From: Trichlorobacter lovleyi SZ | GTDB lineage: Bacteria; Desulfobacterota; Desulfuromonadia; Geobacterales; Pseudopelobacteraceae | DNA: 32,000 bases | Assembly: GCF_000020385.1 (NCBI RefSeq) | Contig: NC_010814.1 | Location: forward strand, 2,010,001 to 2,042,000 | Direction: 5' to 3' | Shown: piece by piece, positions 2,694 to 20,925 of the stretch | Layout: each line of letters starts with the position of its first letter | How positions within the stretch are numbered: position 1 is the first letter of the stretch | Program-made: the position numbers and the translations under genes | Notes under the pieces: generated by a model | The model's input: the letters and a program-made list of their open reading frames with translations, nothing else | Databases searched by the model: none | Told to the model about the DNA's origin: nothing

Positions 2694-4271
2694 GTGGCGT
2701 CCCTGCTGCTGGTTGTTGCAGTTCTGCAGTCATACCGCGGTATGCGCTCAACTGAAGATCGTGTTGATATGTTTGTTGAAAAATATCAGGCTCTTGCTTT
2801 TATTGTCAGTGAAATGCACACCCAGGGTATCCAGACCGAACAGGCCATCCGTAATGTTATCCTGAACCCGTCTGATGAAAAGGCGATGGCCAACTACAAA
2901 AAGGCCAATGAAGAGTTCCTTGAGTCACATAAATCAGCCTCCAAATTGGCAAAAGATCTGAGCCGGTACGAACAGAACCTGGCGAAGCTTCCTGCGCTCT
3001 GGCAGGAAAATGCCGCAGTCAAGGAAGAGATTATCGCACTGGCCCGTTCCGGTAATCAGGCATCTGCCATAGAAATGCTGGCCAAGCAGGAAACCCCCAA
3101 ATGGCGTGAGATTAAAGCCCAGATTGTGGATCTGCAAAAGGGCATGAAAAAAGATATGGCTGCCTTCAGAAAAGAGATGGACAAGAAGAACGAGAATAAT
3201 CTGATCGTAACGGTTGCCATCCTGGGGGTGGCAATTGTGCTGATCAACATCATCCTGCTGGTTTTCTGGAAGCTGATGCAAAACTCCCTTGATACCATGG
3301 TGCTGCGTCTGAAGGATATTGCATCAGGTGAGGGAGATCTGACCCAGCGCTTGGAGGTGCAGGGCAAAGATGAGCTGGCCCAGGCGGCTCACTGGTTGAA
3401 CGAGTTTATCGAGAAGCTGAATCGTACTCTGGTGAGTATCTCCACCACCACCACCACACTTGCTTCAGCTACCTATGAACTGAATAATACCGCCGATCAG
3501 ATGGCCACCAGTGCGGAAGAGGTCTCGGCCCAGGCCCTGACCGTGGCCACGGCCAGTGAAGAGATGGCAGCCACCAGCAATGACATTGCCAGTAACTGTC
3601 ATGCCGCTGCCGAAAGTGCGCAATATGCTGCCAATACCACTGAAAAAGGGTTTGCGGTGGTTAAGCATACCGTTGATGGTATCAGGCAGCGGGGAGAAAA
3701 GACCAAACTTAACGCCCAGGACATTTCATCCCTGGGCGAACGTTCCGACCAGATTGGTGCCATTGTGGCCACCATTGAGGATATTGCCGACCAGACCAAC
3801 CTGCTGGCCCTGAATGCCGCCATTGAAGCGGCCCGGGCCGGTGAAATGGGACGTGGCTTTGCCGTGGTTGCCGATGAGGTCCGTGCCCTGGCTGAACGGA
3901 CCACCCGTGCCACCAAAGAGATCGGCGAGATGATCAAGGCGATTCAGCAGGAGACCAGGGAGGCGATTGTTTCCATGGAGGAGGGGGTACGGGGCACAGA
4001 AAAGGGTGCAGCCGAGGCGGCCCAGCTGGAATCCGCCCTGCAGGAAATTCTGGATCAGGTCAATTCCGTAACCATGCAGATCAGTCAGATTGCCACGGCA
4101 GCCGAAGAACAGACCGCCACCACCAGCGAGATTACTGACAACATCCACAAGATCTCGGAGGTAATTGAGGGTACTTCCAAAGGAGCTATGGATACTGCAG
4201 CGGCATCGGACAGTCTGTCGCATCTAGGAGATGAACTGAAGCGCCTGATGGGGCAGTTCAAGCTGGCCTGA
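2694..4271 (+). CDS. methyl-accepting chemotaxis protein (4-helix-bundle periplasmic sensor, HAMP, MCP signalling domain). Conservative ORF; the natural start appears to be ATG 2637, separated by an in-frame TGA at 2670-2672
   Basis: Signalling hairpin core [44 protein letters not shown]2 is [26 protein letters not shown] 2694 has no SD, whereas ATG 2637 has GAGGAGG 6 nt upstream. Confidence 0.85.
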
Positions 4272-4284
4272 TACCCGGGAAACC

Positions 4285-6600
4285 ATGTCACGCTACCGCC
4301 TCTCCATAAAGCTCAAGCTGCTGCTGGCGATCTTGCCGATCCTGGCAGCGCTTGGCTTTCTGACCACTATTTTTGTGTCGTCGTACATCCAGCATTCATT
4401 TCAGCATGATCTTGAAAAGCAGCAACTGACCCTTGTCTCGCTGATGGCACAAAAGCTGGATGACCAGTTTGCCGCCTACCAGAAAACCATCATCTCATTT
4501 TCAAAAAGCATCCCGCGTCATGCCTTGAACAATCCGCAACAGCTGGAACAGTACATTGACAGCCGGCAAGGTGTTCTGGAATTTTTTGATAACAATGTGG
4601 TGGTTTTCTCTCCTCAAGGGGTGTTGCTGGCTGAGACAGCCAAACGCCCAAGCCGCACAGGTACTGATTTTTCCTTCCGCGATTATATCATCCAGACCCG
4701 TAAAAACTGGCTGCCTGTCATCTCCAAGCCGTTTCGGAGCCAGCTCAATCACCGGCCACCGGTTGTGATGTTCACTGCGCCGGTGCTTGACAAGGATGGC
4801 ACGCCCCTGGCGATTGTGGGGGGGAGCATCAACCTGCTGCGTCCCAATCTACTGGGCAGGCTGGCCACTACCAGGATCGGCAGCAACGGCTATTTTTATC
4901 TGAGCGATCTTGATCGCACCATGATCATGCATCCGGATCAGAATCGTCTGATGAAGCCGGTTGCTGCACCCGGGGTTAACAGGCTGTATGACAGGGCGCT
5001 GGCCGGTTTTGAAGGGGCAGGGGAGACCAGTAATAGCGAGGGCGTAGCAATGTTGACCGCATTCAAGCGCCTCAGCACGGTTAACTGGATCATGGCGGTC
5101 CAGGTGCCTGTTAAAGAGGCCTATGCCGCTGTCAACACTGCCCGACGTCTGGCATGGATCAGCACCGGCTGCGCCCTGCTTGTGCTTGCCATACTTACCA
5201 TTGCAGCTGCCTCGCATCTGCTGGCGCCACTGCAGCTGCTGACGACCCGGGTGTCACAGGTTGACCAGGACAGCGAGTACCAGCCGATCAAGATTGCGTC
5301 CAATGATGAAATCAGCGAACTGGCCACGGCCTTTAACAGCCTGATGTATCAACTGCAAGCCCGCGAACGTGATCTGCGCAGTAGCCGGGAGTTGTTCCAG
5401 TTTATTGCAGACTTCTCCCATGATTGGATCTTCTGGCGAATACCGGGCGGGGCAATGCTGTATATCTCACCTGCTGCGGAGGAGATCACCGGATACTCGG
5501 TTGATGAGCTGATGTCCGAGCCTACCCTGACCTATACCATGATCCACCCGGAAGATCGCGGCCTCTGGGATCAGCATCTCTGTCAGACCGAAAAAAGTCC
5601 TGATAATCAGACTATTGAGTACCGGATCATCACCAAATCGGGTCAGGTGCGCTGGTTACGCCATATCTGTGTTTCAATCTTTGACGACAATGGCGCATTG
5701 CTGGGAGTACGGGGGAGTAACCGCGATATCACTGAACGCAAGCTTGCGCTGCTGACGTTGAAGGAGAACGAAGAACGCTTCCGCTTGATCGCCAAAACAG
5801 CCCACGATGCGATCATCATGACTGATCTCCATCATCGCATCAGCTTCTGGAATCCGGCAGCAGAACTGCTTTTCGGGGCCGACTCGGCCGCTGTTATCGG
5901 CCTGCCGCTGGTAACCTTCCTGCCCGGCCTGGTGGATGCGGTGCATCAGTCCGAGACGAATAGTGAGCGGGGGCTGATGCTTGAAATCAGCGGACGTCAT
6001 CAGGATGGCCATCTGCTAATGGTGGAGCTGGCCTATTCGCAGGCCCGGCTTTCAGGTGCCCCGGTCACGGTGGTGGTTGCCCGTGATATTACGGCACGCA
6101 AACAGACAGAAGAACAACTGCGCTATATCAGCCTGCATGACAGTCTGACCGGACTCTATAACCGGGCCGCCTTTGAACACCACCTGTCCCGTTTTGACAA
6201 GGAAGGGCCGTTCCCGTTGGCAGTGATCATGGCTGACCTGGATGGTCTCAAGCAGGTCAATGACACCCAGGGACATGAGGCCGGTGACCGTTTGCTGCAG
6301 GCTGCAGCCGAACTGCTCTCACTCTCGTTTCGTACCAATGATATTGTTGCCCGGATCGGCGGAGATGAATTTGCCCTGCTGTTGCCGGGTATCCCGGAAG
6401 AGATGGCAAAGAACAAGTTTAACCGCCTGCAGCGGCAGATTGAACTGTTTACGGAATTACCTGAAAATCCGCAGGTTGCGCTATCCTGCGGCATGATCCA
6501 GGTCACCGGGCCGGGGCAACTGCTGGAGGCGGTGAAACAGGCCGATCAGCTGATGTATCAGCAGAAAAAGGCCCGTAAAGAAAATTTATCCCTGCTTTAA
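4285..6600 (+). CDS. diguanylate cyclase with dCache-like periplasmic sensor, HAMP, two PAS domains and GGDEF
   Basis: 771 aa. N-terminal TM, GYFYLSDLDRTMIMHPD Cache-type motif, second TM, two PAS blocks, GGDEF domain (RIGGDEFALLL) with an RxxD I-site (RTND). Confidence 0.85.
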   Translation: MSRYRLSIKLKLLLAILPILAALGFLTTIFVSSYIQHSFQHDLEKQQLTLVSLMAQKLDDQFAAYQKTIISFSKSIPRHALNNPQQLEQYIDSRQGVLEFFDNNVVVFSPQGVLLAETAKRPSRTGTDFSFRDYIIQTRKNWLPVISKPFRSQLNHRPPVVMFTAPVLDKDGTPLAIVGGSINLLRPNLLGRLATTRIGSNGYFYLSDLDRTMIMHPDQNRLMKPVAAPGVNRLYDRALAGFEGAGETSNSEGVAMLTAFKRLSTVNWIMAVQVPVKEAYAAVNTARRLAWISTGCALLVLAILTIAAASHLLAPLQLLTTRVSQVDQDSEYQPIKIASNDEISELATAFNSLMYQLQARERDLRSSRELFQFIADFSHDWIFWRIPGGAMLYISPAAEEITGYSVDELMSEPTLTYTMIHPEDRGLWDQHLCQTEKSPDNQTIEYRIITKSGQVRWLRHICVSIFDDNGALLGVRGSNRDITERKLALLTLKENEERFRLIAKTAHDAIIMTDLHHRISFWNPAAELLFGADSAAVIGLPLVTFLPGLVDAVHQSETNSERGLMLEISGRHQDGHLLMVELAYSQARLSGAPVTVVVARDITARKQTEEQLRYISLHDSLTGLYNRAAFEHHLSRFDKEGPFPLAVIMADLDGLKQVNDTQGHEAGDRLLQAAAELLSLSFRTNDIVARIGGDEFALLLPGIPEEMAKNKFNRLQRQIELFTELPENPQVALSCGMIQVTGPGQLLEAVKQADQLMYQQKKARKENLSLL

Positions 6601-6669
6601 CAGCCCTGTTGATTGCCAAACAACCATTCCCTGTTACACTTGGCTATAATTTGTGGAGGTCGTTCCACC

Positions 6670-9309
6670 ATGGTAGCCTGGTTTAACAACCTTTCAATCA
6701 CCACTAAAGCCACCATCCTGCTTTCGCTGACTGCCATGTTTTTTTTGCTGGCGCTGTCGGGTGTTACCTATTTTTTTGCCCGCCAGGAGCTGCAGCAGTC
6801 CATTGCCACCAACCAGACCGCCATGGTCAACAATATTGCCGTCCAGCTGGATGAAAATCTGGCCTCTGCCCGCAACTATCTGCAGCATCTGGCAGGGCAT
6901 CTACAACAGCAGCACGGAAAGGTGCCTGCACATCTCCAGCAGATACTCGGGCATCATGATGAAGCCCATCTGTTTTTCGACCACGGTCTGATCCTGCTTT
7001 CACCGCAGGGCAGGATTGTTGCCGAGATCCCCTACCACCCTGAGCGGATCGGACTTGATCGCAGCCACCGTGAATACTACCAGCGTGTCATGGCAACCGG
7101 TAAGCCGTCAATCAGCGCACCGTACCAGCTCTCGTTGCCGCCCAACCCGCCGGTGATTGCCTTTTCCGTGCCGGTCCGGGATACCCAAAACCGGATGACT
7201 GGTGTGCTGATGGGACGGCACAGTCTGTATAAAAAGGGCATTTTGCAAGGTTTGGTTGATGCACCGATCGGCAACAGCGGCTATTTCTATCTTTTTAACC
7301 AGCAGCGGACCTTGCTGATCCATCCTGATGTGTCCCGCATCCTTACCACTGTGGCACCTGGAAAAAACAGGGCGCTTGATGCTGCCCTGCAAGGCCGGGA
7401 GGGTACCTGGGAAAACACCAATTCTCTCGGCGTTGCCGGACTGACCAGTATCAAACAGCTGAAGGAGGCCCCCTGGTACCTGGCTGCTCACTATCCACTC
7501 AGTGAGGCCTATGCCCCCCTGCAACGTGCCCGCTTTGCCTTTGTTGCCGTACTGGTGGTTTCCATGGGGCTGGCAGTGGTAGCGGTCTGGTTCAGTATGC
7601 AGCCGATGGTGCAGCCATTACGCCAGTTAACGGAACATCTGCGGGATCTTGGACAAAAACAGGGGGATGAACGCTTTCTGCCGGAAACGTCACGTGATGA
7701 GATCGGACAGCTCAGCAAGGTGTTTAACGAGCTGTTGCATGAACTGGATGACGACACTGCCGCCCTTGAAGAATCAGCCGAGGTCTACCGGATCGTAACC
7801 GAGTTTACGACCGAGGTCTCGATCTGGCAGCTTGAAAACGGTGATATCCGTTATATCTCCCCCAACTGCATTGATGTGTTCGGCTACATGGCCGCAGAAT
7901 TTTATGCAGACCCCGCTCTGATTTCAATCATGATCCATCCTGATGATCAGGCCGCCTGGCAGGGGCACCGGCCGGGAAGTTGTTCATTGGGCGGGAGCGG
8001 AGTTGAGACCAGGATGATTGTCAAGGATGGTTCAATCCACCATTTCAGGCATTACTGTCATCAGGTGGTTGATCAGCAGGGGCGGCCTAACGGTATCCGC
8101 AGCAGTTGGCTGGATGTCTCCGGCCAGCAGTTGATTGAATCCAGGGCACGCAAACTTTCCAGGGCCGTGGAACAGAGTGCCGGAATTGTCATTATGACCG
8201 CCACGGACGGCTCGATTGAGTATGTCAACCCTGCCTTCTGCAGGGCAACCGGTTACACCGGTGATGAGGTGCTGGGAAGAAATATCGATCTGCTCAAGAC
8301 CGACCAACTGTCAAAAGAGGTTGAAGAGGCCCTGTGGCGCGCCATTAACAATGGCCAGCAGTGGCGGGGAGAGTTCTGCAACCAGCGCAAGGACGGCAGC
8401 AGGTACTGGGTGAATGCGTCAATCTCGCCGCTGTTCGATAAAAATAACCAGATTACGGGATACCTGTCGGTTCAGGAGGATATTACCGATAAAAAGGCGG
8501 CCGAACAGCTGATGCTGGAGCTATTCCAGCAGGTGGAGCAGGCAAAACTTGAATGGGAGCATACGCTGGACCATCTGCATGACTTTATTATCCTGACCGA
8601 TGCCGAACACCGGATCAGGCGCTATAACCGGATACTGGCCGACATGACCGGCAGGGATGTCAAGGGGCTGGTTGGTAAAGACTGGCGAGACCTGCTGCAG
8701 GAAACAGGTTTCAAATTTGTCCACTTTAATGCTGAAAGCGGAGAGATGCTGCACCAGCGTTCCGCCCATATCTATGACATCAATGTCTATCCGGTCAAGG
8801 ACTCGCTCGAAGGTACGTTGACCGGGTTTGTGATCTCCCTGAACGACACCACAGAACTGCGGGCCATTACCCATGAGCTTGAACAGACCATGACGGAACT
8901 GAACGAGGCGCAGTCCCAGATCTATCAACAGGAAAAGATGGCCTCCATCGGTCAGCTGGCTGCCGGGGTGGCCCATGAGATCAACAATCCGATGGGCTTT
9001 ATTACCAGTAACCTTGGATCGCTGGACAAATATGTCAGCAGATTGTCGGACTATATCAGCGTGGTTGATCAGGCCATGCAGCAGTGTACTGTTGCCGGTC
9101 TGGTTGCCCCGGTTCTGGAGGCCCGCAAGCAGCTCAAGATAGACCGGATTCTTGCTGATGCCCATCAACTGATTGGAGAAAGCCAGGACGGAGCCGGGCG
9201 GGTACGCAGGATTGTGCAGGATCTGAAGAGCTTTTCACGGGTTGATCAGGCGGAAACCGCACTGGTTGATCTGAACGAAATCCTGGAAACCACCAGGGGT
9301 TTTGCCTGA
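6670..9309 (+). CDS. sensor histidine kinase with dCache-like sensor, HAMP, three PAS domains and DHp. It is truncated and has no HATPase_c catalytic domain
   Basis: GGAGG lies 10 nt upstream of ATG 6670. H-box AAGVAHEINNPMGF, then ...DLKSFSRVDQAETALVDLNEILETT. The ORF ends (TGA TGA, 9307-9312) where the N/G1/F/G2 boxes should begin. Confidence 0.8.
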   Translation: MVAWFNNLSITTKATILLSLTAMFFLLALSGVTYFFARQELQQSIATNQTAMVNNIAVQLDENLASARNYLQHLAGHLQQQHGKVPAHLQQILGHHDEAHLFFDHGLILLSPQGRIVAEIPYHPERIGLDRSHREYYQRVMATGKPSISAPYQLSLPPNPPVIAFSVPVRDTQNRMTGVLMGRHSLYKKGILQGLVDAPIGNSGYFYLFNQQRTLLIHPDVSRILTTVAPGKNRALDAALQGREGTWENTNSLGVAGLTSIKQLKEAPWYLAAHYPLSEAYAPLQRARFAFVAVLVVSMGLAVVAVWFSMQPMVQPLRQLTEHLRDLGQKQGDERFLPETSRDEIGQLSKVFNELLHELDDDTAALEESAEVYRIVTEFTTEVSIWQLENGDIRYISPNCIDVFGYMAAEFYADPALISIMIHPDDQAAWQGHRPGSCSLGGSGVETRMIVKDGSIHHFRHYCHQVVDQQGRPNGIRSSWLDVSGQQLIESRARKLSRAVEQSAGIVIMTATDGSIEYVNPAFCRATGYTGDEVLGRNIDLLKTDQLSKEVEEALWRAINNGQQWRGEFCNQRKDGSRYWVNASISPLFDKNNQITGYLSVQEDITDKKAAEQLMLELFQQVEQAKLEWEHTLDHLHDFIILTDAEHRIRRYNRILADMTGRDVKGLVGKDWRDLLQETGFKFVHFNAESGEMLHQRSAHIYDINVYPVKDSLEGTLTGFVISLNDTTELRAITHELEQTMTELNEAQSQIYQQEKMASIGQLAAGVAHEINNPMGFITSNLGSLDKYVSRLSDYISVVDQAMQQCTVAGLVAPVLEARKQLKIDRILADAHQLIGESQDGAGRVRRIVQDLKSFSRVDQAETALVDLNEILETTRGFA

Positions 9310-10255
9310 TGATCTGAACAAGATTACGATCATCAGCAAAAAACCGCAGGGGGTGATTATCGCTACCGGTCCGACCGGCAGCGGCAAAACCACCATGCTC
9401 TACTCGCTGCTGGCCGCCATGATGAATCCCAGCAAGAACTTTGAGACCATTGAAGAACCGGTGGAGTATTATCTGGAAGAGGCAAATCAGGTCTCGATCC
9501 ATGAGAAAATCGGGCTTTCCTTTGCCCAGGTCTTGCGGGCCACCCTGCGACAGGATCCGGATGTGATCCTGGTAGGGGAGATGCGCGATTTCGACACCGC
9601 CGATACTGCCTTCAAGGCTGCCTTAACGGGCCATATGGTACTCTCAACCCTGCACACCAACAGTGCCATTGCCTCCATCACCCGTCTGATTGATATGGGG
9701 ATCAAGCCCTATATTCTGGCCTCTGCCCTGGAGGGGATCATTGCCCAGCGTCTGGTGCGGCGGATCTGTGAAAACTGCCGGGAAGAAACCGTTCCTGATC
9801 CGGAACAGTCAGCGCTGTTGCGGGTCCCGGAAGACTTTTTTAATGGCACAACCTTCCGCGGGGCAGGTTGCGTCCGCTGCAACAACACCGGCTACAAAGG
9901 CCGCCTGGGAATCTATGAGATCTTTCTGATGAGTGATGAGTATCGTCAGTTGATCGGTACCAGTTACAAGGAGTCGGAGATCCAGACCATCGCCCGTGTC
10001 AACGGTATGCGCAGCCTGCTTGAGGATGGCCTGGAAAAGGTCCGTCAGGGGCTGACTACCATGGAAGAAATCCTGCGGGTGGTTGGGCCGGCTGTGCGGA
10101 TGGAACGGCAGTGCGACCACTGCGGCAAGCTGATGGAATCGCGGCACCTCTTCTGTCCCCACTGCGGTGCCTTCCGGCAGAATTGCTGCAAATCATGTCA
10201 CCAGTCTCTAGAGGATGAATGGTTGGTTTGTCCTGTTTGCGGTACGGCACGTTGA
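9302..10255 (+). CDS. PilB/GspE/PulE-family secretion ATPase, C-terminal ATPase domain only, plus a C-terminal double zinc ribbon. It has no credible start of its own (frame open from 9275), so it is either a pseudogene fragment or fused to the upstream kinase by a +1 shift
   Basis: Walker A GPTGSGKTT, Asp box ETIEEPVEY, Walker B DPDVILVGEMRD, His box TGHMVLSTLHTN, tetracysteine CENC...CVRC. About 300 aa of N-terminal domains expected for this family are absent. The TTG at 9302 is only the ORF-tool start and lacks a properly spaced SD. Confidence 0.7.
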   Translation: MPDDLNKITIISKKPQGVIIATGPTGSGKTTMLYSLLAAMMNPSKNFETIEEPVEYYLEEANQVSIHEKIGLSFAQVLRATLRQDPDVILVGEMRDFDTADTAFKAALTGHMVLSTLHTNSAIASITRLIDMGIKPYILASALEGIIAQRLVRRICENCREETVPDPEQSALLRVPEDFFNGTTFRGAGCVRCNNTGYKGRLGIYEIFLMSDEYRQLIGTSYKESEIQTIARVNGMRSLLEDGLEKVRQGLTTMEEILRVVGPAVRMERQCDHCGKLMESRHLFCPHCGAFRQNCCKSCHQSLEDEWLVCPVCGTAR

Positions 10256-10274
10256 ATATGAAAAAGGAGTTTCC

Positions 10275-10832
10275 ATGAGCAATCCGATCCTGCTGGTTGA
10301 TGATGAAGCCAATGTCTTATCGGCACTGACCCGCGCCCTTTTTGATGAACCGTATCAGGTAACCTGTGCCAAAAGTGGTGAAGAAGCCCTGGCATTGATT
10401 GCCACTACGCCGTTTAAAGTGGTGATCTCCGACGAACGCATGATCGGCATGCAGGGCAGCGAACTGTTGGCAATCCTGAAGGAACGCTATCCGCATACGC
10501 TTAGAATACTGCTGACCGGACATGCCACCCTTGAGGCAGCCCTGAAAGCGGTTAACCAAGGTGAGATCTATCGCTTTTTTACCAAGCCCTGGAATGATAC
10601 CGATCTGAAGTTTGCCATCCGGTCAGCCATTGAACGTTATGACCTTGAGGCAGAAAACCGGCGTTTGCTGGCAACTGTAAAAAATCAGGCCATGGAGATC
10701 AAGGTGCTTGAAAAACGCTACCCCGGTATCAGCCGGGTTGAGAAAGATAACCTGGGCAGTTTTGTGCTGCCGGATCTTTCTGAAGCGGAAATCAGGATGA
10801 TGATGGCAGAGTGTGAAAAGGAAGTCGGTTGA
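10275..10832 (+). CDS. response regulator: receiver domain plus a short C-terminal coiled-coil-like tail with no recognised output domain
   Basis: AAGGAG lies 7 nt upstream of ATG 10275. ILLVDDE...VVISDERMIGMQG...LLTGH...FFTKPW receiver motifs. Confidence 0.85.
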   Translation: MSNPILLVDDEANVLSALTRALFDEPYQVTCAKSGEEALALIATTPFKVVISDERMIGMQGSELLAILKERYPHTLRILLTGHATLEAALKAVNQGEIYRFFTKPWNDTDLKFAIRSAIERYDLEAENRRLLATVKNQAMEIKVLEKRYPGISRVEKDNLGSFVLPDLSEAEIRMMMAECEKEVG

Positions 10833-10845
10833 AGATAAAAAAGTC

Positions 10846-10874
10846 TTGACCTGGACTCCCGATTGATTTATATA
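10846..10874 (+). promoter_or_regulatory. near-consensus sigma70 promoter for the tRNA-Ala/tRNA-His pair
   Basis: TTGACC (10846-10851), 17-nt spacer, TATATA (10869-10874), about 60 nt upstream of tRNA-Ala. Confidence 0.6.
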
Positions 10875-10935
10875 GCTAAGACTTTTCGCGATACGAAAAC
10901 GCCGCGTGAAAAGCACCCTGTTTGATTGGTTGTGT

Positions 10936-11011
10936 GGGGCTGTAGCTCAGCTGGGAGAGCGCTTGACTGGCAGTCAAGAGGTCGACAGTTCGATCCTGTT
11001 CAGCTCCACCA
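10936..11011 (+). tRNA. tRNA-Ala (anticodon GGC)
   Basis: Hand-folded cloverleaf. Acceptor ggggctg/cagctcc with the G3:U70 Ala identity pair, anticodon loop ctGGCag, T-arm gacagTTCGATCctgtt, encoded CCA. Confidence 0.9.
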
Positions 11012-11018
11012 TAATTGT

Positions 11019-11042
11019 AAAAGCCGGCTCTTGCCGGCTTTT
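11019..11042 (+). terminator. terminator-like hairpin in the 44-nt spacer between the two tRNAs
   Basis: aaagccggc-tctt-gccggcttt perfect stem followed by TTTT. Confidence 0.5.
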
Positions 11043-11055
11043 GACATAGGGCTGT

Positions 11056-11132
11056 GGTGGCCATGGTGAAGCGGTTAACACTTACGACTGTGACTCGTAC
11101 ATACGAGGGTTCGATCCCCTCTGGCCACCCCA
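11056..11132 (+). tRNA. tRNA-His (anticodon GTG)
   Basis: Encoded extra G at position -1 (g-gtggcca...tggccac-c-cca), anticodon loop ctGTGac, T-arm gagggTTCGATCccctc. Overall similarity to the canonical bacterial tRNA-His layout. Confidence 0.9.
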
Positions 11133-11507
11133 AAAAACATAACCTGCTGTAAACCTGCAGGTTGCTATACCTAATGAGGTTTTTCCGATTTGTTGCCATG
11201 TCTGGTACGAACGGTGGAACCTCATTTTGCATTTTTGGACTCTGACTATTCAGCTCAACCTTCCCTTTGACCATCAACAATATCCCCTTCTGATACCTGC
11301 GGAACCTCAACCGGCACTGCAAACGACGTGAGCTGCCTTTGTATATCGTTTGTAGATAGACCTTTAGATTGTAAATAAATTACATGTAGTTATGGTGTAT
11401 CTGTACGTTTTTAAATCCTTATTTGTTAAATTGTTATATTTTGTTCGGATGCTGAAATTCAAATTATTTGCTTGATTGACGCATAATTTGTGCGGTAATT
11501 TGTCTGC

Positions 11508-11804
11508 ATGAAAATCATATGTTCATGTTACGGCTATCGCGAGAATGAAATTTTTCAGGAAATCCTTGATACGGGGATCTCAAGCATTTTAATCAATATT
11601 GAGACGGCCTACAATCTGGGGTTATGTAGCTGCAAAACAAAAAATCCAAGTAAACACTGCTGTTTGCCAGAAGTTCGTCTGGTCGCTGAAAATGCGATGA
11701 TTGAGCGCCTGGAAATAATCAAAACAGCGATACTTACCCTGGAGCTGCATGGCGTTAATATTGAGAGGCTAAGTCAAAAGGCTAAAGAATTATTTGATTT
11801 TTGA
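11508..11804 (+). CDS. hypothetical small Cys-rich protein, possibly BFD-like [2Fe-2S]-binding
   Basis: 98 aa. IICSCYGYRENEI...GLCSCKTKNPSKHCC resembles the CxC...CxxC layout of Bfd-type domains. GC is 38-42% in the two lines I counted, and there is no obvious SD. Confidence 0.4.
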   Translation: MKIICSCYGYRENEIFQEILDTGISSILINIETAYNLGLCSCKTKNPSKHCCLPEVRLVAENAMIERLEIIKTAILTLELHGVNIERLSQKAKELFDF

Positions 11805-12129
11805 CAAGGCGGCGTTCATTCCCTGTATCTTTTGCAATACTGCTGTTGTTTTTTCTGCGCATACCCACACCCTCCCGTTTTTCAAACGGTAAAAGTTTTA
11901 ATACCCTCATCCCTCCTGCAACAATGTTTCTTGAGTAATCGTGTTCCCAGTAGTGGGTACTGGACATTTTATGCAATGTCATCGATTGGTTGCCAGCGTT
12001 GTTCCCTGTATCTCTATTGTTGGTCTGTTGCGTTGTTTATTGTTTTTGTATGGAATTGCGTGGTATACTTCCATTGTAGGAAAGATAAAGAGTCCGAAGA
12101 AGGTTGTAGGGCCTGGGAAGGAGAGGGCA

Positions 12130-12609
12130 ATGAAACTCAACGAATGTGCCATAAAGATGGAAAGAGAAACGCAGTCACATTATGAACGATTATCCAATAT
12201 GGTGAGTAATGATGAATTAAAACGACTGTTTTCGCTGATTGCCTCAGTAAAGCTGGAGCATATTAATCGTCTGACTGCGCTGGAAGAGAAGTCGGATGAA
12301 ACAGGGAAGGTAGATGTGGATGAGTCCTTGTGTTCCTACAGTCCGTATATTGGTCCGTGGCGTCTGGCAGAGGCATTGAAAGATGATGCTGATGGCTATC
12401 GCCATCTGGAGCAGGAAGAAAAATCAATGATTGAGTTCTTTGAGGAGCTGGGGAGCCGGACAGAGGATGATGAGGTGAAGAAAATCTGCCGGATTCAGGC
12501 TGATAAAGAACGGGAGCATCTCGAAACGCTTGAAAGAATTTACTCCTTTGTGGAAGAACCCAGAACGTATCTGGAGTGGGGTGAATTCAGTAACCTTAAA
12601 AGTCTTTAA
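12130..12609 (+). CDS. ferritin-like / rubrerythrin-family four-helix-bundle protein
   Basis: AAGGAGAG lies upstream of ATG 12130. 159 aa. AIKMERETQSHYERL...LEQEEKSMIEFF...ADKEREHLETLE resembles the short rubrerythrin/ferritin-like family (E, ExxH, E, ExxH helices). Confidence 0.65.
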   Translation: MKLNECAIKMERETQSHYERLSNMVSNDELKRLFSLIASVKLEHINRLTALEEKSDETGKVDVDESLCSYSPYIGPWRLAEALKDDADGYRHLEQEEKSMIEFFEELGSRTEDDEVKKICRIQADKEREHLETLERIYSFVEEPRTYLEWGEFSNLKSL

Positions 12610-12633
12610 GTGTTTGAAAAGAGGTGTATTATC

Positions 12634-12828
12634 ATGATAAGCAAACATTATGAACAGGTCTGTTACAGGACTGAACAACGGGAGGAAAGCCTTCCGCTGC
12701 GACATATGCGGGATGGACGTTTGGGTTATACCTTGGGATGTACTCCAGAAGGCGAGACCGTTCAGGTTAGGCTTGTAAATGGCGAGCTGGACAGTTGGTC
12801 TCGTGATGAGTGCATGGAAAGTTTCTAG
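12634..12828 (+). CDS. hypothetical small protein (64 aa)
   Basis: AGAGGTG lies about 8 nt upstream of ATG 12634. It follows the ferritin-like gene by 24 nt and is followed by a terminator. I recognise no family. Confidence 0.45.
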   Translation: MISKHYEQVCYRTEQREESLPLRHMRDGRLGYTLGCTPEGETVQVRLVNGELDSWSRDECMESF

Positions 12829-12863
12829 AAGTACAGACAATAGATCGGAGCATGAGCTTACTG

Positions 12864-12899
12864 GGGGTCGGCAAACAATTGTCCGGCCCCTTTTTTTTC
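12864..12899 (+). terminator. rho-independent terminator closing the low-GC gene trio
   Basis: ggggtcgg ... ccggcccc imperfect stem followed by an 8-nt T run (12891-12898). Confidence 0.55.
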
Positions 12900-13076
12900 T
12901 TGCGCAGGCAGGCTCGAGCACGATGCTGCCACTTGAACCGGTATGGACGCCCGGGGAGTTTACGGTGAGCTTTTTTGATTGATACCCGGCATTCTGTTTG
13001 ACGGCCTTAAAGTAGGGCAGGTAAAAATTAGTTGTCGCCAGGCCGGTTTTCTAAACAGATTTTCAGTTGCCGTTGC

Positions 13077-13104
13077 TTGACAGTTTGATGACTTGTTGTA
13101 TCCT
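13077..13104 (+). promoter_or_regulatory. candidate sigma70 promoter for the REC-GAF-PAS-GGDEF gene
   Basis: TTGACA (13077-13082), 16-nt spacer, TATCCT (13099-13104), about 40 nt upstream of ATG 13146. Confidence 0.4.
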
Positions 13105-13145
13105 GATTCAGTTAGAGGTAGTGCTGATAACCGTCAGGAGACGCA

Positions 13146-14996
13146 ATGGCAGTTCATCCGATAACCGGCGATAGTTCTTCGCTGGTTGAATTACGCGAAA
13201 TTTCAATCCTCTTTGCTGAAGACGACACCAGTGTCCGCACCCATATTTCGCGGATGCTGACGCCGGTCTGCGGTGAACTGTACACGGCAGAAAATGGTCG
13301 TGTTGCCCTTGATCTGTTCAGGAAGAAAATGCCGGACCTGGTCCTGACCGATATTACCATGCCGGCCATGACCGGTCTTGATCTGGCTCGCCAGATCAAG
13401 CTGGAACGTCCGGCAGTACCGGTTATCATCATTTCATCCCACGACGATTCTGAGCACCTGCTGCAGGCTATTAATCTTCACCTTGACGGTTACCTGACAA
13501 AACCTCTCAACGTTCAGAAGCTGTTTGCCAATCTTCAGCAGCAGGCAATGTTGCTACGTGCCCGTCGGCTTGCCAGCCAGCAGTCCAGGCTTTTGTCCGG
13601 TGTCAATATGGCCATTCAATACCTCTTGTCCGCTGATGCCAATCAGGATGCGGTCGATTTTGCACTGCAGGAAATGGCCAAGGCCGCCCGGGCCGACAAA
13701 ATTTTCCTTTATCACTATCAGAATGCAGTGCTGGGTGACCGTGAAGTTTCCTTGATCAGTGGTTTCGCCGGAGGGGAGATGGTTCTGCGCTTTCTTGATG
13801 GTGCCGAGCCGGATATGCCTGAGCTGCCGTACCTTGAGCGTTGGTACGGCCTTCTTTCACAAGGTAAATCAATTTCTGGCCCCCGTTCAGCTTTCCCGTC
13901 GGAAGAGCGCCATATACTGGATACCATGCGGGTACGCTCGATGCTGCTGACTCCTATTTTTGAGGAGGGTAATCTGTGGGGTTTTGCCTGCCTCTGTGAT
14001 ATGAAACGGGAACGCCCCTGGTCAGACGCCGAGACTTCAGTGGTGATGACTGCGGCACGGGGACTGGGCAGTTTCATGGGGCGTCTCAAGCTGGAAGAGG
14101 AACGTCTTGAGGCACGCAAATCACTTGAACTTGCCAATACGCAATGGCGTGAAACCTTTGATACAATCCCTGATATGGTCATGGTCTTGGATACCTCACA
14201 CCAGATTGTACATATCAACAAGGCCGCAAGAGAACGCCTGAACATCGGTGAATCCGGCCCCCAAAGCCTGATCGGCCCCTGCTTTCAGCATGTACATGGA
14301 GCAAGCCACCCCCTGCAGGGCTGTCCCCACAGTGCCCTGCTGAAAGACCATCAACCCCATGAGACAGAGGTTCATATTCCACATATGAACAGCTACTTTC
14401 ATATTACGGTCAATCCAACCTTTGATGGGGATGGCAATCTGGTCGGTGCTGTCCATGTGGCTCGTGATGTTACCAAACGGCGTGAAATGGAAGACCGGTT
14501 GCGGTACCTCAGTACCCATGACGAAATGACCAAGCTGTATAACCGCGCTTTTTTTGAAGCCGAAATTGAGCAGCTTGAAAAGGGTCGCGTGGCTCCGTTA
14601 TCGGTGGTCATTGCTGATCTTGACGGACTGAAAGAAGCGAACGACCGTTTTGGCCATGATGTCGGTGATGGCTTGATCAGGGCTGCTGCAGATCTTCTGC
14701 GGGAGATTTTTCGGGCTGGTGATGCCATTGCCAGGATAGGTGGAGATGAGTTTGCCGTGATCCTGAAAGGGGTGGGGGAAGAACTGCTTGCCACCATTAT
14801 GGAACGGGCGCGCCAGATGCTTGAGGAAGGCGGTCATCAGTCTGAACATGGTCTGAAGGTCCGCTTCTCTCTGGGTAGTGCCACAACCGGCTTTCCTGCT
14901 CGTCTTCAGGATGCGATCAGAGAGGCGGATATGGCCATGTATGAAGATAAGAAGGCTCGTAAGCTGAAAGAAAACGAACTCTCAGAATTCGCCTGA
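13146..14996 (+). CDS. response-regulator diguanylate cyclase (REC-GAF-PAS-GGDEF)
   Basis: 616 aa. REC (ILFAEDD...LVLTDITMPAMTG...YLTKP), a GAF-like middle region, a PAS domain, and GGDEF (RIGGDEFAVIL) with an RxxD I-site (RAGD). Confidence 0.85.
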   Translation: MAVHPITGDSSSLVELREISILFAEDDTSVRTHISRMLTPVCGELYTAENGRVALDLFRKKMPDLVLTDITMPAMTGLDLARQIKLERPAVPVIIISSHDDSEHLLQAINLHLDGYLTKPLNVQKLFANLQQQAMLLRARRLASQQSRLLSGVNMAIQYLLSADANQDAVDFALQEMAKAARADKIFLYHYQNAVLGDREVSLISGFAGGEMVLRFLDGAEPDMPELPYLERWYGLLSQGKSISGPRSAFPSEERHILDTMRVRSMLLTPIFEEGNLWGFACLCDMKRERPWSDAETSVVMTAARGLGSFMGRLKLEEERLEARKSLELANTQWRETFDTIPDMVMVLDTSHQIVHINKAARERLNIGESGPQSLIGPCFQHVHGASHPLQGCPHSALLKDHQPHETEVHIPHMNSYFHITVNPTFDGDGNLVGAVHVARDVTKRREMEDRLRYLSTHDEMTKLYNRAFFEAEIEQLEKGRVAPLSVVIADLDGLKEANDRFGHDVGDGLIRAAADLLREIFRAGDAIARIGGDEFAVILKGVGEELLATIMERARQMLEEGGHQSEHGLKVRFSLGSATTGFPARLQDAIREADMAMYEDKKARKLKENELSEFA

Positions 14997-15090
14997 ACCA
15001 GGCTTTTTTCTATTCCCATGTTTGCTGCCTTTCGATAAAAATAGCGTAGACGTTCTTGACTTCACTGCCGTGCTGTACTAACGTCTGTAA

Positions 15091-16584
<1,494 letters not shown>

Positions 16585-16597
16585 GGATAGTTATTTT

Positions 16598-18151
16598 ATG
16601 AGTTCTACTGACATTCACAGCCAGAAGATTCTGATTCTTGATTTTGGTTCTCAGGTTACCCAGCTGATCGCCCGCCGCATTCGTGAACAGTCGGTTTACT
16701 GTGAGATTCATCCCTACAATATGGGTCTAGAGAAGATTAAGGCCTTTGCCCCTCAGGGGATTATCCTCTCCGGAGGTCCAAGCAGTGTCTATGATGCTGA
16801 TGCCCCCCATTCCGATGCCGGTGTCTATGAACTGGGGGTGCCGGTGCTGGGGATCTGCTATGGCATGCAGCTGATGACCAGCCAGCTGGGTGGCAAGGTG
16901 GAGCGTTCAGATAAGCGTGAATTCGGTCGTGCTGCCATGACAATTGACGACACCACTGATCTCTTTTCCGGCCTGTCCGGCAAGGAAGAGGTCTGGATGT
17001 CCCATGGCGACAAGATTGAGCAGATGCCCAAGGGCTTCAGTGCCATTGCCCACACTGACAACACCCCGGCTGCTGCCATGAAGGATGAGAAACGTCGCCT
17101 CTATGCGGTGCAGTTCCACCCTGAGGTGGTTCACACCCCGAAGGGTGCGGAGATGTTGGGCAACTTTGTCTTTACGGTCTGCGGTTGTCAACCGATCTGG
17201 ACCATGGCCAACTTTATCGAAACCGAGATTGCAGCCATCCGCGAAAAGGTTGGTAACGGTAAGGTTATCTGTGCACTGTCCGGCGGGGTGGACTCATCAG
17301 TGGTAGCTGTATTGCTGCATAAGGCGATCGGTGATCAGTTACAGTGCATCTTTGTCAATAACGGCCTGCTGCGCAAGGGTGAGGCGGAAAAGGTGGTCAA
17401 CCTCTTTACCCGTCACTTCAAGATTAATCTTGATTACGTTGAGGCATCTTCGCGCTTCCTTGATAAACTGAAAGGAATTACTGATCCTGAGCAAAAACGG
17501 AAGATTATCGGCAATGAGTTTATCTACCTTTTTGAAGATGAGGCAAAGAAGATCGGGACGGTAGACTGGCTGGCACAGGGAACTCTCTATCCTGACGTGA
17601 TTGAATCGGTTTCCACCAAGGGGCCATCAGCAGTGATCAAGAGCCACCATAACGTCGGCGGCCTGCCTGACCGGATGAAGATGAAGCTGATTGAACCGGT
17701 ACGTGAATTGTTCAAAGATGAGGTTCGGCTGCTCGGTAAAGAGCTTGGCCTGCCTGATGAGGTCATTCATCGCCAGCCGTTCCCCGGCCCTGGCCTGGCA
17801 ATCCGCTGCATTGGAGAGATCACGGCAGACCGGCTGGAAATACTGCGGGAATCAGATGCGATTGTGTTGGATGAAATTCGTAAGGCGGGGCTCTACCGCG
17901 AGATATGGCAATCTTTTGCCGTGTTGCTGCCTGTTCGCTCGGTTGGCGTCATGGGGGATGCCCGTACTTATGACTACACCATTGCCCTGCGAGCCGTAAA
18001 TTCGCTGGACGGCATGACTGCCGATTGGGTCAAGCTGCCCTATGAGGTGATGGGCAGTATCTCATCACGGATCATCAATGAGGTCAAAGGGGTTAACCGG
18101 GTGGTCTATGATATCAGTCAGAAACCGCCAGCTACCATTGAGTGGGAATAA
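16598..18151 (+). CDS. guaA: GMP synthase (glutamine-hydrolysing)
   Basis: 517 aa. GATase domain ([12 protein letters not shown]), PP-loop SGGVDSSV, C-terminal PPATIEWE. Confidence 0.95.
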
Positions 18152-18175
18152 GAACTCTGAAGAGCAGGAGGGGCC

Positions 18176-20071: not shown

Positions 20072-20072
20072 G

Positions 20073-20405
20073 ATGCAGGCGGCCTGTCTGGTAGCAGGAG
20101 TCATGCTGATTATGGCAGGTTGTTCGCAACAGGACAACAGGCCGGAAACGCGCAAACAACAGCAGACACCAGCAGTTTTTCAGTCCAGCCAAAAGTTTGC
20201 CGAACTCTGCGCTGCCTGCCACGGCGTCCGGGCCAGGGGAGGGGTAGGGCCTGATTTAACGGTGTCCCGCTTCAAATATGGTAAAGACAGAGCTTCAATA
20301 AAAAAGAGCATTCTGGAAGGGCGTCCGGGCGGGATGCCTGCCTTTGGCGCTCATATCAAACCGGAGGACGCAGCAGCGTTGGCCGACTATCTGCTTTCAT
20401 TGTAG
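20073..20405 (+). CDS. class I c-type cytochrome, lipoprotein
   Basis: ATG lies 1 nt after the upstream stop. Lipobox LIMAGC, single CAACH haem motif, distal GGMPAF Met ligand region. Confidence 0.8.
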   Translation: MQAACLVAGVMLIMAGCSQQDNRPETRKQQQTPAVFQSSQKFAELCAACHGVRARGGVGPDLTVSRFKYGKDRASIKKSILEGRPGGMPAFGAHIKPEDAAALADYLLSL

Positions 20406-20433: not shown

Positions 20434-20925
20434 GTGGCGGGAATCAGCTTTGAAGAGGTAATGTTTACGGTCATGACGGCCACCCAGGACACCTTCAAGT
20501 GTTATATGAATATTGAGTTGTATGCAGGCCATGTAGAACGCAAAGTTACGCCTGTAGATTCTGATGTGACCGGTATTATTGGCGTTGCCGGTGATCGGGT
20601 TGGTTATATCATTGTCGCTGCGGACCGGGCAACAGCACAGCTGGTTGCTCGCGAGATGTTAATGGATGATGAGCCGGATGAAGACTCAATCCGTGATGCC
20701 ATCGGCGAACTGATCAACAATATCGCCGGTGCGTTCAAGACCAAGTACCACGACCAGTACGGCAATGTAGCCATGGGACTGCCGCTGGTGGTGTCCGGAC
20801 AGTTGCGGACGGTTACGGAACCGCCTGAAGAGGGTGCCAGTATGAATGTCCAGTGTAAGGGGGTTACCATCCCCTTTACCAACAAGGACGGCAGTGCCAA
20901 TCTGAAGGTTATGATCTACATGTAA
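20434..20925 (+). CDS. CheX-like chemotaxis phosphatase family protein
   Basis: GGAGG lies 8 nt upstream of GTG 20434. TGIIGVAGDRVGYIIV...AIGELINNIAGAFKT resembles the CheX/CheC-like fold signature. Confidence 0.6.
   Translation: MAGISFEEVMFTVMTATQDTFKCYMNIELYAGHVERKVTPVDSDVTGIIGVAGDRVGYIIVAADRATAQLVAREMLMDDEPDEDSIRDAIGELINNIAGAFKTKYHDQYGNVAMGLPLVVSGQLRTVTEPPEEGASMNVQCKGVTIPFTNKDGSANLKVMIYM

What the first reader, a model, noticed from the sequence alone, without database searches (positions are those of the whole stretch)
9260..9320. A histidine-kinase ORF runs into a start-less PilB/GspE-type ATPase ORF across a GGGGTTTT run
**What the sequence shows**
- The 6670-9309 ORF has a full sensor, PAS domains and a DHp region (AHEINNP ... 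DLKSFSRVDQAETALVDLNEILETT).
- It stops at TGA TGA (9307-9312), where the ATP-binding N/G1/F/G2 boxes of a histidine kinase should start.
- The +1 frame is open from 9275. It reads ...GVLPDDLNKITIISKKPQGVIIATGPTGSGKTT and continues through all the motifs of a secretion/pilus hexameric ATPase.
- That ATPase lacks its roughly 300-aa N-terminal domains. It also has no usable start: the TTG at 9302 sits only 2 nt after AGGGG.
- Removing one base from the G4 or T4 run (9296-9303) gives a continuous ORF of about 1210 aa. Removing one T would read ...LETTRGLPDDLNKI..KPQGVIIATGPTGSGKT.
- That sequence resembles the LGL/LGF-x(16-20)-P-x-G-hhh-TGPTGSGK lead-in of the family, as I recall it from PilB/EpsE.
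- A 10-nt direct repeat TGATCTGAAC (9267-9276 and 9310-9319) brackets the junction. It encodes DLN in both frames.

**Possible readings**
1. A sensor-DHp module whose kinase catalytic domain is replaced by a T2SE-type ATPase. I do not know of a described example. It would be interrupted here by a homopolymer indel or a sequencing error.
2. A deletion scar that fused two unrelated genes and left two pseudogenes.
3. An assembly chimera.
Basis: partly seen in the sequence, partly recalled or inferred. Interest (0 to 1): 0.85.

Follow-up and report, generated by a model that had tools for sequence, protein, structure and literature searches.

The report
Deletion scar joining two truncated genes
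A recent deletion in one Trichlorobacter (Geobacter) lovleyi lineage removed a block of signalling genes and joined the front of a sensor kinase gene, out of frame, to the back of a pilus/secretion-type ATPase gene, so this is an ordinary pair of gene remnants and not a new fusion protein.

Summary
A dCache-HAMP-PAS-PAS-HisKA kinase ORF with no HATPase_c domain ends at 9309. A +1-frame ORF follows that encodes only the C-terminal ATPase domain and zinc ribbon of a PilB/GspE-family protein.

The favoured interpretation, a new sensor-DHp/T2SSE fusion broken by a homopolymer error, is refuted.
- Close relatives carry an intact 1016-aa kinase with HATPase_c and an intact 798-aa REC-MshEN-T2SSE-Zn-ribbon ATPase. 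Both lie on the same strand, 9.5-14.3 kb apart, with 7-10 signalling genes between them.
- Window 3812-9295 is collinear with the intact kinase locus at 97% identity. Window 9296-20255 is collinear with the intact ATPase locus at 99.8%, starting at ATPase codon 480.
- The junction is blunt, at 9295|9296, with no microhomology.
- GGGGTTTTGCC is native ATPase sequence (Gly-Val-Leu-Pro) and is identical in the intact gene, so no base is missing from the run.
- The kinase is cut after the first base of a codon, so the joint is out of frame by construction.
- The same junction occurs in 10 independent assemblies, so it is neither a chimera nor a read error.

Interest is low.

The parts
6670..9295 (+). 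Native part of the sensor histidine kinase remnant: codons 1-875 plus the first base of codon 876. Domains are dCache_1, HAMP, PAS, PAS and HisKA/DHp. The HATPase_c catalytic domain is missing.
   Evidence: Pfam. It is collinear with the intact 1016-aa orthologue gene in L007 (window 3812-9295 = L007 1-5484, 96.96% nt). The intact orthologue P0121 has HATPase_c at residues 904-1009.
9295..9296 (.). Deletion junction. It is blunt, with no shared bases between the two parental sequences at the joint.
   Evidence: The BLASTN alignments to the two parental-type loci abut without overlap. The three-way alignment shows kinase ...ACCACCA|TCAAC and ATPase ...GGAACTG|GGGGTTTT. The 34-nt junction word is exact in 10 independent assemblies.
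9296..9309 (+). Out-of-frame tail of the kinase ORF (A|GG GGT TTT GCC TGA, giving RGFA then stop), read from ATPase-gene sequence.
   Evidence: The intact kinase continues ...ETT-INIAWNELKY..., whereas here it reads ETT-RGFA*.
9296..10255 (+). ATPase remnant: codons 480-798 and the stop of a REC-MshEN-T2SSE-Zn-ribbon PilB/GspE-family ATPase. It holds the C-terminal ATPase domain (Walker A GPTGSGKT, Asp box, Walker B DVILVGEMRD, His box, CxxC...CxxC) and the double zinc ribbon. REC, MshEN and the N2 subdomain are missing.
   Evidence: It is 100% identical in nucleotides to L001 11438-12397 (0 differences in 957 nt). Pfam T2SSE profile positions 125-370 only. The intact orthologue P0002 has REC at 36-144, MshEN at 237-318 and T2SSE at 361-740.
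9302..9304 (+). TTG, the only possible start upstream of Walker A. In the intact gene it is the internal codon Leu482. It lies 2 nt after AGGGG and overlaps the end of the kinase ORF by 8 nt.
   Evidence: Public annotation calls a 317-aa product from this TTG (P0001).
9267..9276 (+). Left copy of the 10-nt word TGATCTGAAC. It is native kinase sequence and encodes DLN.
   Evidence: It is present at the same place in the intact kinase gene of L007..
9310..9319 (+). Right copy of TGATCTGAAC. It is native ATPase sequence and encodes DLN. It is not the crossover point and not a target-site duplication.
   Evidence: It is present at the same place in the intact ATPase gene of L001..
10275..10832 (+). 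185-aa single-domain response regulator. It is the conserved downstream neighbour of the ATPase gene.
   Evidence: Pfam Response_reg. The same 185-aa gene follows the intact ATPase in L001-L006, L011 and L023.
4285..6600 (+). 771-aa dCache-HAMP-PAS-PAS-GGDEF diguanylate cyclase. It is the conserved upstream neighbour of the kinase.
   Evidence: Pfam. The same 771-aa gene precedes the intact kinase in L007, L008 and L009.

Best explanation
Positions 9295|9296 are the scar of a single, recent, non-homologous deletion in the Trichlorobacter (Geobacter) lovleyi SZ-like lineage.

**Ancestral arrangement (shown).** It matches what relatives still have:
- a dCache-GGDEF gene;
- a dCache-HAMP-PAS-PAS-HisKA-HATPase_c kinase of 1016 aa;
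- about 9.5-14 kb or more of further two-component genes;
- a REC-MshEN-T2SSE-Zn-ribbon ATPase of 798 aa;
- a 185-aa REC gene.

**What the deletion removed (shown).**
- The last 425 nt of the kinase gene, including the whole HATPase_c domain.
- All the genes between the kinase and the ATPase.
- The first 1437 nt of the ATPase gene, covering REC, MshEN and the N2 subdomain.

**Why the joint is out of frame (shown).** The kinase was cut after the first base of a codon and the ATPase exactly at a codon boundary. The kinase ORF therefore reads four junk codons (RGFA) and stops, and the ATPase C-terminal half sits in the +1 frame with no start of its own.

**Consequences (inferred).**
- The kinase remnant cannot autophosphorylate.
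- The ATPase remnant is at best weakly made, by reinitiation at the internal TTG. Without N2 and the N-terminal domains it is unlikely to form a working hexameric motor.
For: 1. **Intact orthologues exist for both halves.** The ATPase orthologue is 798 aa with REC, MshEN, T2SSE and a zinc ribbon, and is 96-100% identical over the remnant (P0002-P0009; domains). The kinase orthologue is 1016 aa with HATPase_c and is 96% or 90% identical (P0121 and P0122).
2. **The DNA is collinear on both sides and switches at one point.** Window 3812-9295 equals L007 1-5484 at 96.96%. Window 9296-20255 equals L001 11438-22397 at 99.81%. There is no overlap.
3. **The G4T4 run is intact.** GGGGTTTTGCCTGATGATCTGAAC is base-for-base identical in the intact gene of L001.
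4. **The two genes are syntenic in relatives.** They lie on one contig and one strand, 14.35 kb apart in ERZ21878134 contig_14 (L010 and L012) and 9.5 kb apart in L023.
5. **The junction is reproducible.** It is exact in 10 assemblies from separate samples or runs (ENA ERZ724082, ERZ724083, ERZ724086 and ERZ27315029; Logan SRR253106, ERR7764202, ERR7764176, ERR7764179, SRR9436583 and SRR3330208). These are 99.96-100% identical to the window.
6. **The event is recent.** There are no differences from L001 across the 957-nt ATPase remnant, and the first mismatch is 2.5 kb downstream. The kinase remnant shows no clear relaxation of selection, with dN/dS 0.16 against 0.11-0.13 between intact copies.
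7. **No fusion-type homologue was found.** None of the 120 best of 8000 scored homologues of the conceptual fusion has HisKA or PAS domains. The full-length ones carry REC and MshEN N-terminal domains instead.
Against: - The immediate ancestor is not available. The best kinase-side relative is only 97% identical, and I could not put both intact genes on one contig in a T. lovleyi strain, so the exact size of the deletion is unknown.
- A 10-nt word shared by the two retained flanks is rarer than chance suggests. It occurs in 0.5% of random break pairs and is unexplained.
- Loss of function of the remnants is inferred from domain content and was not measured. Their sequences are undecayed, so residual activity is not excluded. 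Examples are phosphatase activity, heterodimerisation of the DHp-only kinase, or a coupled translation product of the ATPase domain.
Confidence: 0.95

Rival explanations
1. A native, new architecture in which the sensor-DHp module has a T2SSE ATPase domain in place of the kinase catalytic domain. In this window it would be interrupted by a 1-nt homopolymer indel or a sequencing error in GGGGTTTT.
For: Deleting one G or one T gives a continuous 1213-aa ORF. The lead-in GVLPDDL...PQGVIIATGPTGSGKT looks like the family's own lead-in.
Against: - That lead-in is simply the ATPase's own sequence (MEELGVLPDDLNK in intact P0002).
- The G4T4 run is identical in the intact gene.
- Homology to the ATPase gene starts exactly at 9296 and homology to the kinase gene ends exactly at 9295.
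- The intact kinase continues with a normal HATPase_c domain.
- No DHp-T2SSE homologue appears among the 120 best hits.
- Ten assemblies show the same run length.
Confidence: 0.01
2. An assembly chimera or misjoin at 9295/9296.
For: There is an abrupt switch of homology at a single position, and the two flanks have different closest relatives (97% against 99.8%).
Against: The identical 34-nt junction, with thousands of bases of matching flank on both sides, was assembled independently from at least 10 samples or runs with different assemblers. One of the contigs that encode the 317-aa product is 3,917,761 bp long, the published size of the finished strain SZ chromosome (PMC3403914).
Confidence: 0.01
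3. The deletion is real, but the products are still used. The CA-less kinase would act as a phosphatase, or as a regulator through DHp heterodimers with the paralogous kinases. The 317-aa ATPase domain would be translated by termination-reinitiation at TTG 9302. Alternatively, occasional +1 slippage would make a fused protein.
For: - Both remnants are undecayed.
- The TTG overlaps the kinase stop by 8 nt, a geometry that can support translational coupling.
- The allele is widespread in SZ-like populations.
- A paralogous REC-kinase with 61-63% identical DHp-CA regions exists in relatives.
Against: - Lack of decay is expected for a very recent event, given zero substitutions in 957 nt.
- The spacing of 2 nt between the Shine-Dalgarno-like AGGGG and the TTG is poor.
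- From established structural knowledge of PilB/GspE/PilT motors, the N2 subdomain packs against the neighbouring subunit's C-terminal domain in the hexamer. An isolated C-terminal domain is therefore unlikely to be an active motor.
- There is no slippery +1 motif at the site, and no time has passed for selection of one.
Confidence: 0.08

Closest known systems
Deletion-generated gene remnants (pseudogene pairs at a strain-specific deletion junction)
   Same: - Two genes that are intact and separate in relatives are each truncated at one shared breakpoint.
- The intervening genes are missing.
- The joint is out of frame.
- The flanks are otherwise unchanged.
   Different: Nothing essential differs. 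The junction has no microhomology, so it is not a slipped-strand or short-repeat deletion. The mechanism (NHEJ, topoisomerase-mediated or other illegitimate recombination) is not determined.
PilB / GspE / MshE-type assembly ATPases (Pfam T2SSE PF00437; closest solved structures are type IV pilus ATPase PilB entries 5zfr, 6olj and 5tsg/5tsh)
   Same: The remnant keeps the C-terminal ATPase domain, with Walker A, Asp box, Walker B, His box and the tetracysteine motif. The intact orthologue aligns with PilB structures over residues 184-742 (E 1e-141).
   Different: - The intact orthologue is a paralogue, not PilB or GspE proper. It scores 570 and 544 bits, below the NCBIfam equivalog cut-offs of 675.65 and 630.25.
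- It carries an extra N-terminal REC domain and a C-terminal double zinc ribbon.
- It sits in a two-component gene array rather than a pilus or secretion operon.
- The window copy lacks REC, MshEN and N2 altogether.
Class I sensor histidine kinases (HisKA + HATPase_c) with dCache-HAMP-PAS input
   Same: The sensor, HAMP, two PAS domains and the DHp with its H-box (AHEINNP) are intact and 96% identical to a complete orthologue.
   Different: The catalytic HATPase_c domain (residues 904-1009 of the orthologue) is deleted, and the ORF ends in four out-of-frame codons.
Programmed +1 frameshift sites (prfB-type: Shine-Dalgarno-like element, slippery codon, stop)
   Same: Superficially, an AGGGG element lies a few bases before an in-frame TGA and the +1 frame is open.
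   Different: - There is no slippery P-site codon. GCC cannot re-pair on CCU, and UUU re-pairs poorly on UUG.
- The arrangement was created by a recent deletion and is absent from all relatives, which have two separate intact genes.

Membership tests
Deletion scar / gene remnants | Each flank is collinear with a different intact gene in relatives, switching at one point | tested here: met
   Window 3812-9295 equals L007 1-5484. Window 9296-20255 equals L001 11438-22397. There is no overlap.
Deletion scar / gene remnants | The missing parts and the intervening DNA exist in relatives, in the same order and orientation | tested here: met
   The kinase and ATPase lie on one strand of one contig, 14.35 kb apart (L010/L012) and 9.5 kb apart (L023). 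HATPase_c, REC, MshEN and N2 are present in the orthologues.
Deletion scar / gene remnants | The junction is reproducible in independent data, so it is not an assembly or read artefact | tested here: met
   The exact 34-nt junction is present in 10 independent assemblies.
Sensor histidine kinase (HisKA/HATPase_c) | DHp (HisKA) domain with a phospho-acceptor His | tested here: met
   Pfam HisKA at residues 780-825 of the 898-aa ORF, E 1.5e-7, with AHEINNP present.
Sensor histidine kinase (HisKA/HATPase_c) | Catalytic ATP-binding HATPase_c domain | tested here: not met
   There is no HATPase_c hit in the window ORF. The orthologue P0121 has it at residues 904-1009.
PilB/GspE-family secretion or pilus ATPase (T2SSE) | C-terminal RecA-like ATPase domain with Walker A/B, Asp and His boxes | tested here: met
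   T2SSE profile positions 125-370, E 1.1e-86. The motifs can be read in the translation.
PilB/GspE-family secretion or pilus ATPase (T2SSE) | N2 subdomain (T2SSE profile positions about 1-124) and an N-terminal N1/MshEN domain | tested here: not met
   Profile positions 1-124 and MshEN are absent from the window. They are present in P0002 at residues 361-480 and 237-318.
PilB/GspE-family secretion or pilus ATPase (T2SSE) | Own translation start with a ribosome-binding site | tested here: not met
   The only candidate is the internal TTG (Leu482 of the intact gene), 2 nt after AGGGG. The frame opens only at 9275.
   The joint is out of frame because of the codon phases of the two breakpoints. 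None of the 120 best of 8000 scored homologues has HisKA plus T2SSE.
Programmed ribosomal frameshift | A frameshift site conserved in relatives, with a slippery motif | tested here: not met
   Relatives have two separate intact genes and no such junction. No slippery codon can be read at 9296-9309.

The most novel reading that the evidence does not exclude
The deletion might be an adaptive loss rather than neutral. It removed a whole array of two-component genes and is fixed in the SZ-like T. lovleyi lineage seen in many samples. The CA-less kinase might then be retained as a phosphatase or dominant-negative partner of paralogous kinases, and the orphan ATPase domain might be made by translational coupling. 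Nothing here tests this. The undecayed remnants are equally explained by the event being very recent.
Probability: 0.07. Interest if true: 0.3.

Novelty: already known. Interest (0 to 1): 0.08.

Why it matters
It matters mainly as a correction.
- An apparent domain swap, with a kinase catalytic domain replaced by a secretion ATPase, would have been remarkable. It is in fact the out-of-frame joint of a strain-specific deletion.
- The 317-aa 'ATPase, T2SS/T4P/T4SS family' protein and the 879-aa kinase annotated in this lineage should be treated as gene remnants.
- More modestly, the two-component gene array around this ATPase is structurally unstable among Trichlorobacter strains.

Tried and rejected
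- **Homopolymer indel or sequencing error: rejected.** The run is identical in the intact gene, and 10 assemblies agree.
- **Repeat-mediated deletion through the 10-nt word TGATCTGAAC: rejected.** Both copies are retained. Each is native to its parental gene. A crossover in the repeat would have left one copy and an in-frame fusion (...VDLNKITII...), which is not what is seen.
- **Target-site duplication of a mobile element: rejected** for the same reason. No element lies between the copies.
- **Programmed +1 frameshift: rejected.** There is no slippery codon, and the site is not conserved.
- **Inversion: rejected on geometry.** The kinase 5' part is joined to the ATPase 3' part in the same orientation.
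- **Translocation of the excised segment: nothing found, inconclusive.** A scan of species-representative genomes with the full intact ATPase returned no match above 89% identity. That means no T. lovleyi locus at all, and it did not return the window's own locus either. Either that genome is absent from the collection or only part of it could be read there.
- **Bridging the kinase-side (L007/L008) and ATPase-side (L001/L002/L005/L011) loci of the closest T. lovleyi relatives to size the deletion: failed.** The 10-kb flanks do not overlap. The deletion size comes only from two more distant relatives.
- **dN/dS as a test of decay: uninformative.** The values are 0.16 against 0.11-0.13, and most of the divergence probably predates the deletion.
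Full report
**1. The observation**

- The ORF runs from 6613 (TTG) or 6670 (ATG) to 9309, ends ...VDLNEILETTRGFA, and is followed by TGA TGA.
- The +1 frame is open from 9275 and reads ...PPGVLPDDLNKITIISKKPQGVIIATGPTGSGKTT.
- The only start codon before Walker A is the TTG at 9302, 2 nt after AGGGG.
- Pfam finds dCache_1, HAMP, two PAS domains and HisKA in the first ORF, but no HATPase_c.
- In the second ORF, Pfam matches only positions 125-370 of the 370-position T2SSE profile (E 1.1e-86), plus a double zinc ribbon.
- Removing one G or one T gives a continuous 1213-aa ORF.
- TGATCTGAAC occurs exactly twice in the window, at 9267-9276 and 9310-9319.

**2. What the two halves are in relatives**

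I searched with a conceptual fusion made of the DHp region plus the ATPase.
- It found the 317-aa product itself (P0001, named by NCBI as Trichlorobacter lovleyi 'ATPase, T2SS/T4P/T4SS family'). One of the contigs that carry it is 3,917,761 bp long. That is the published size of the Geobacter lovleyi strain SZ chromosome (PMC3403914).
- It also found many 797-818-aa proteins that are 96-100% identical over the same 317 residues in other T. lovleyi strains.
- These intact proteins are REC (36-144), MshEN (237-318), T2SSE (361-740) and Zn ribbon (752-771).
- They cover only the ATPase part of the query. None of the 120 best of 8000 scored proteins has HisKA or PAS domains.

A search with the kinase remnant found 1009-1024-aa orthologues at 96% (P0121), 90% (P0122), 87% and about 70% identity. 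These cover all of the remnant and carry a normal HATPase_c domain, at residues 904-1009 in P0121.

**3. The junction**

BLASTN of the window against the loci that encode these intact genes gives two collinear blocks that abut without overlap.
- Window 3812-9295 equals L007 1-5484 at 96.96% (dCache-GGDEF gene plus kinase).
- Window 9296-20255 equals L001 11438-22397 at 99.81% (ATPase codon 480 onward plus 10 kb downstream).

The three-way alignment shows three things.
- The intact kinase continues ...GAAACCACCA|TCAACATCGCC (ETT-INIAWNELKY...).
- The intact ATPase reads ...GAGGAACTG|GGGGTTTTGCCTGATGATCTGAAC (MEEL-GVLPDDLNK).
- No base is shared at the joint.

Two conclusions follow.
- GGGGTTTTGCC is unchanged ATPase sequence, so no base is missing from the homopolymer run.
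- The kinase was cut after the first base of its Ile876 codon and the ATPase exactly before codon 480. The two reading frames are therefore offset by construction.

The four residues RGFA and the TGA are ATPase sequence read out of frame.

**4. Synteny and the size of the loss**

In two relatives both intact genes lie on one contig and one strand.
- In ERZ21878134 contig_14 the kinase ends at 20,527 and the ATPase starts at 34,881. The 14.35 kb between them holds about ten signalling genes.
- In L023 the kinase ends at locus position 469 and the ATPase starts at 10,001. The 9.5 kb between them holds seven genes.

The neighbours on the outer sides are also conserved. The 771-aa dCache-GGDEF gene lies upstream of the kinase. 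The 185-aa REC gene, the 98-aa gene, rubrerythrin, REC-GAF-PAS-GGDEF, guaB and guaA lie downstream of the ATPase.

The deletion removed 425 nt of the kinase gene, 1437 nt of the ATPase gene, and everything between. That is roughly 11-16 kb by these two relatives.

It may be more than 20 kb if the ancestor resembled the closest T. lovleyi strains. In those strains the 10-kb flanks on the two sides do not overlap. I could not bridge them, so the exact size is unknown.

**5. Not an artefact**

The 317-aa product is encoded on at least 23 contigs. In 10 independently assembled loci, L013-L022, the 34-nt junction word is exact. These come from ENA ERZ724082, ERZ724083, ERZ724086 and ERZ27315029, and from Logan SRR253106, ERR7764202, ERR7764176, ERR7764179, SRR9436583 and SRR3330208. 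Their flanks are 99.96-100% identical to the window over 3.6-9 kb. That excludes a chimera or a read error in one assembly.

**6. Age and state of the remnants**

- The ATPase remnant has no nucleotide difference from L001 over 957 nt, and the first mismatch lies 2.5 kb downstream.
- The kinase remnant against L007 has dN/dS 0.16, compared with 0.11-0.13 for comparisons involving the intact copies. No decay is visible.

This fits a recent event and says nothing about retained function.

The following rest on established knowledge of the families rather than on measurement.
- A class I kinase without its HATPase_c domain cannot autophosphorylate.
- PilB/GspE/PilT-type motors need the N2 subdomain for the hexamer interface.
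- The only possible start is an internal Leu codon with a badly spaced Shine-Dalgarno-like element.

I therefore regard both ORFs as remnants.

**7. Mechanism of the deletion**

The joint is blunt with no microhomology, so it is an illegitimate (non-homologous) joining. The tools here cannot tell which pathway produced it.

The 10-nt word TGATCTGAAC is native to both parental genes, in the same codon phase. It is neither the crossover point nor a target duplication. A crossover within it would have left one copy and an in-frame fusion.

I drew random pairs of breakpoints from the parental-type loci. A shared word of 10 nt or more in the 50-nt retained flanks occurs in 0.5% of pairs. I record this as an unexplained coincidence noticed after the fact.

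**8. Comparison with known families**

The intact ATPase is a PilB/GspE-family paralogue.
- Its best solved relatives are type IV pilus ATPase PilB entries (5zfr, 6olj, 5tsg), at E about 1e-141 over residues 184-742.
- It scores below the NCBIfam equivalog cut-offs for PilB (570 against 675.65) and GspE (544 against 630.25).
- It has an added REC domain and zinc ribbon, and it sits in a two-component array.

The window copy fails the membership features N1/MshEN, N2 and own start. The kinase fails HATPase_c. A prfB-like frameshift site is excluded, because there is no slippery codon and the site is not conserved.

**9. Verdict**

This is an ordinary strain-specific deletion scar with two gene remnants. 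Interest is low, at 0.08.

Noticed in passing
window 9267-9276 and 9310-9319: The 10-nt word TGATCTGAAC lies 19 nt left and 14 nt right of the deletion joint. It is native to both parental genes and in the same codon phase. For random break pairs in the parental-type loci, a shared word of 10 nt or more in the 50-nt retained flanks occurs only 0.5% of the time. It is not the crossover point. I do not know whether it helped bring the two sites together.
   Followed up: partly
L001 3226-9985 versus L002; L005 and L006 upstream of the ATPase gene: The two-component gene array upstream of the intact ATPase differs between T. lovleyi strains.
- L001 has four extra genes (800, 571, 146 and 646 aa; 6.8 kb) that L002 lacks.
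- L005 and L006 have a different set (REC-HD, REC-HK, REC, REC-HK) directly upstream.

The region is a hot spot of gene gain and loss, and the window's deletion is one more case.
   Followed up: partly
window 2694-4271: A HAMP-MCPsignal chemoreceptor gene sits between the 384-aa HATPase_c gene and the dCache-GGDEF gene. It is present in the window and in L010 (79% nt) but absent from L008 and L009, which have only a 42-aa ORF there.
   Followed up: no
L012 8787-11194 (ERZ21878134 contig_14): In this relative the same ATPase gene is called as two ORFs (400 + 397 aa) because of frame changes near codon 400, next to G, C and A runs. The aconitase gene on the same contig is also split (122 + 722 aa).
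   Followed up: partly
window 10936-11011 and 11057-11132; minus-strand ORF 10876-11322: tRNA-Ala(GGC) and tRNA-His(GTG) follow the 185-aa REC gene. Several public assemblies call a 132-aa minus-strand gene at about this place (for example L013 5575-5973 and L001 13018-13416). It is probably a spurious call.
   Followed up: no
window 16729-16945 (inside the GMP synthase gene 16598-18151): Eight of the 21 mismatches between the window and L001 over 10,960 nt fall within 217 nt. This suggests a short recombination tract in guaA.
   Followed up: no
window 8910-9034; L007 11966-12823, L008 19108-19965: The DHp-CA region of the kinase has a paralogue in the deleted array, a 440-aa REC-kinase. It is 61-63% identical in protein, with a 127-nt stretch at 87% nt identity. 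Homologous recombination between such paralogues would be an obvious route to deletions here, yet the observed joint is non-homologous.
   Followed up: no
(genome-contig scan with P0002): No locus from T. lovleyi with more than 89% identity was returned, although 79 loci from other species were. The window's own genome seems to be absent or masked in that collection. That scan therefore could not show whether the deleted segment sits elsewhere in the genome.
   Followed up: no
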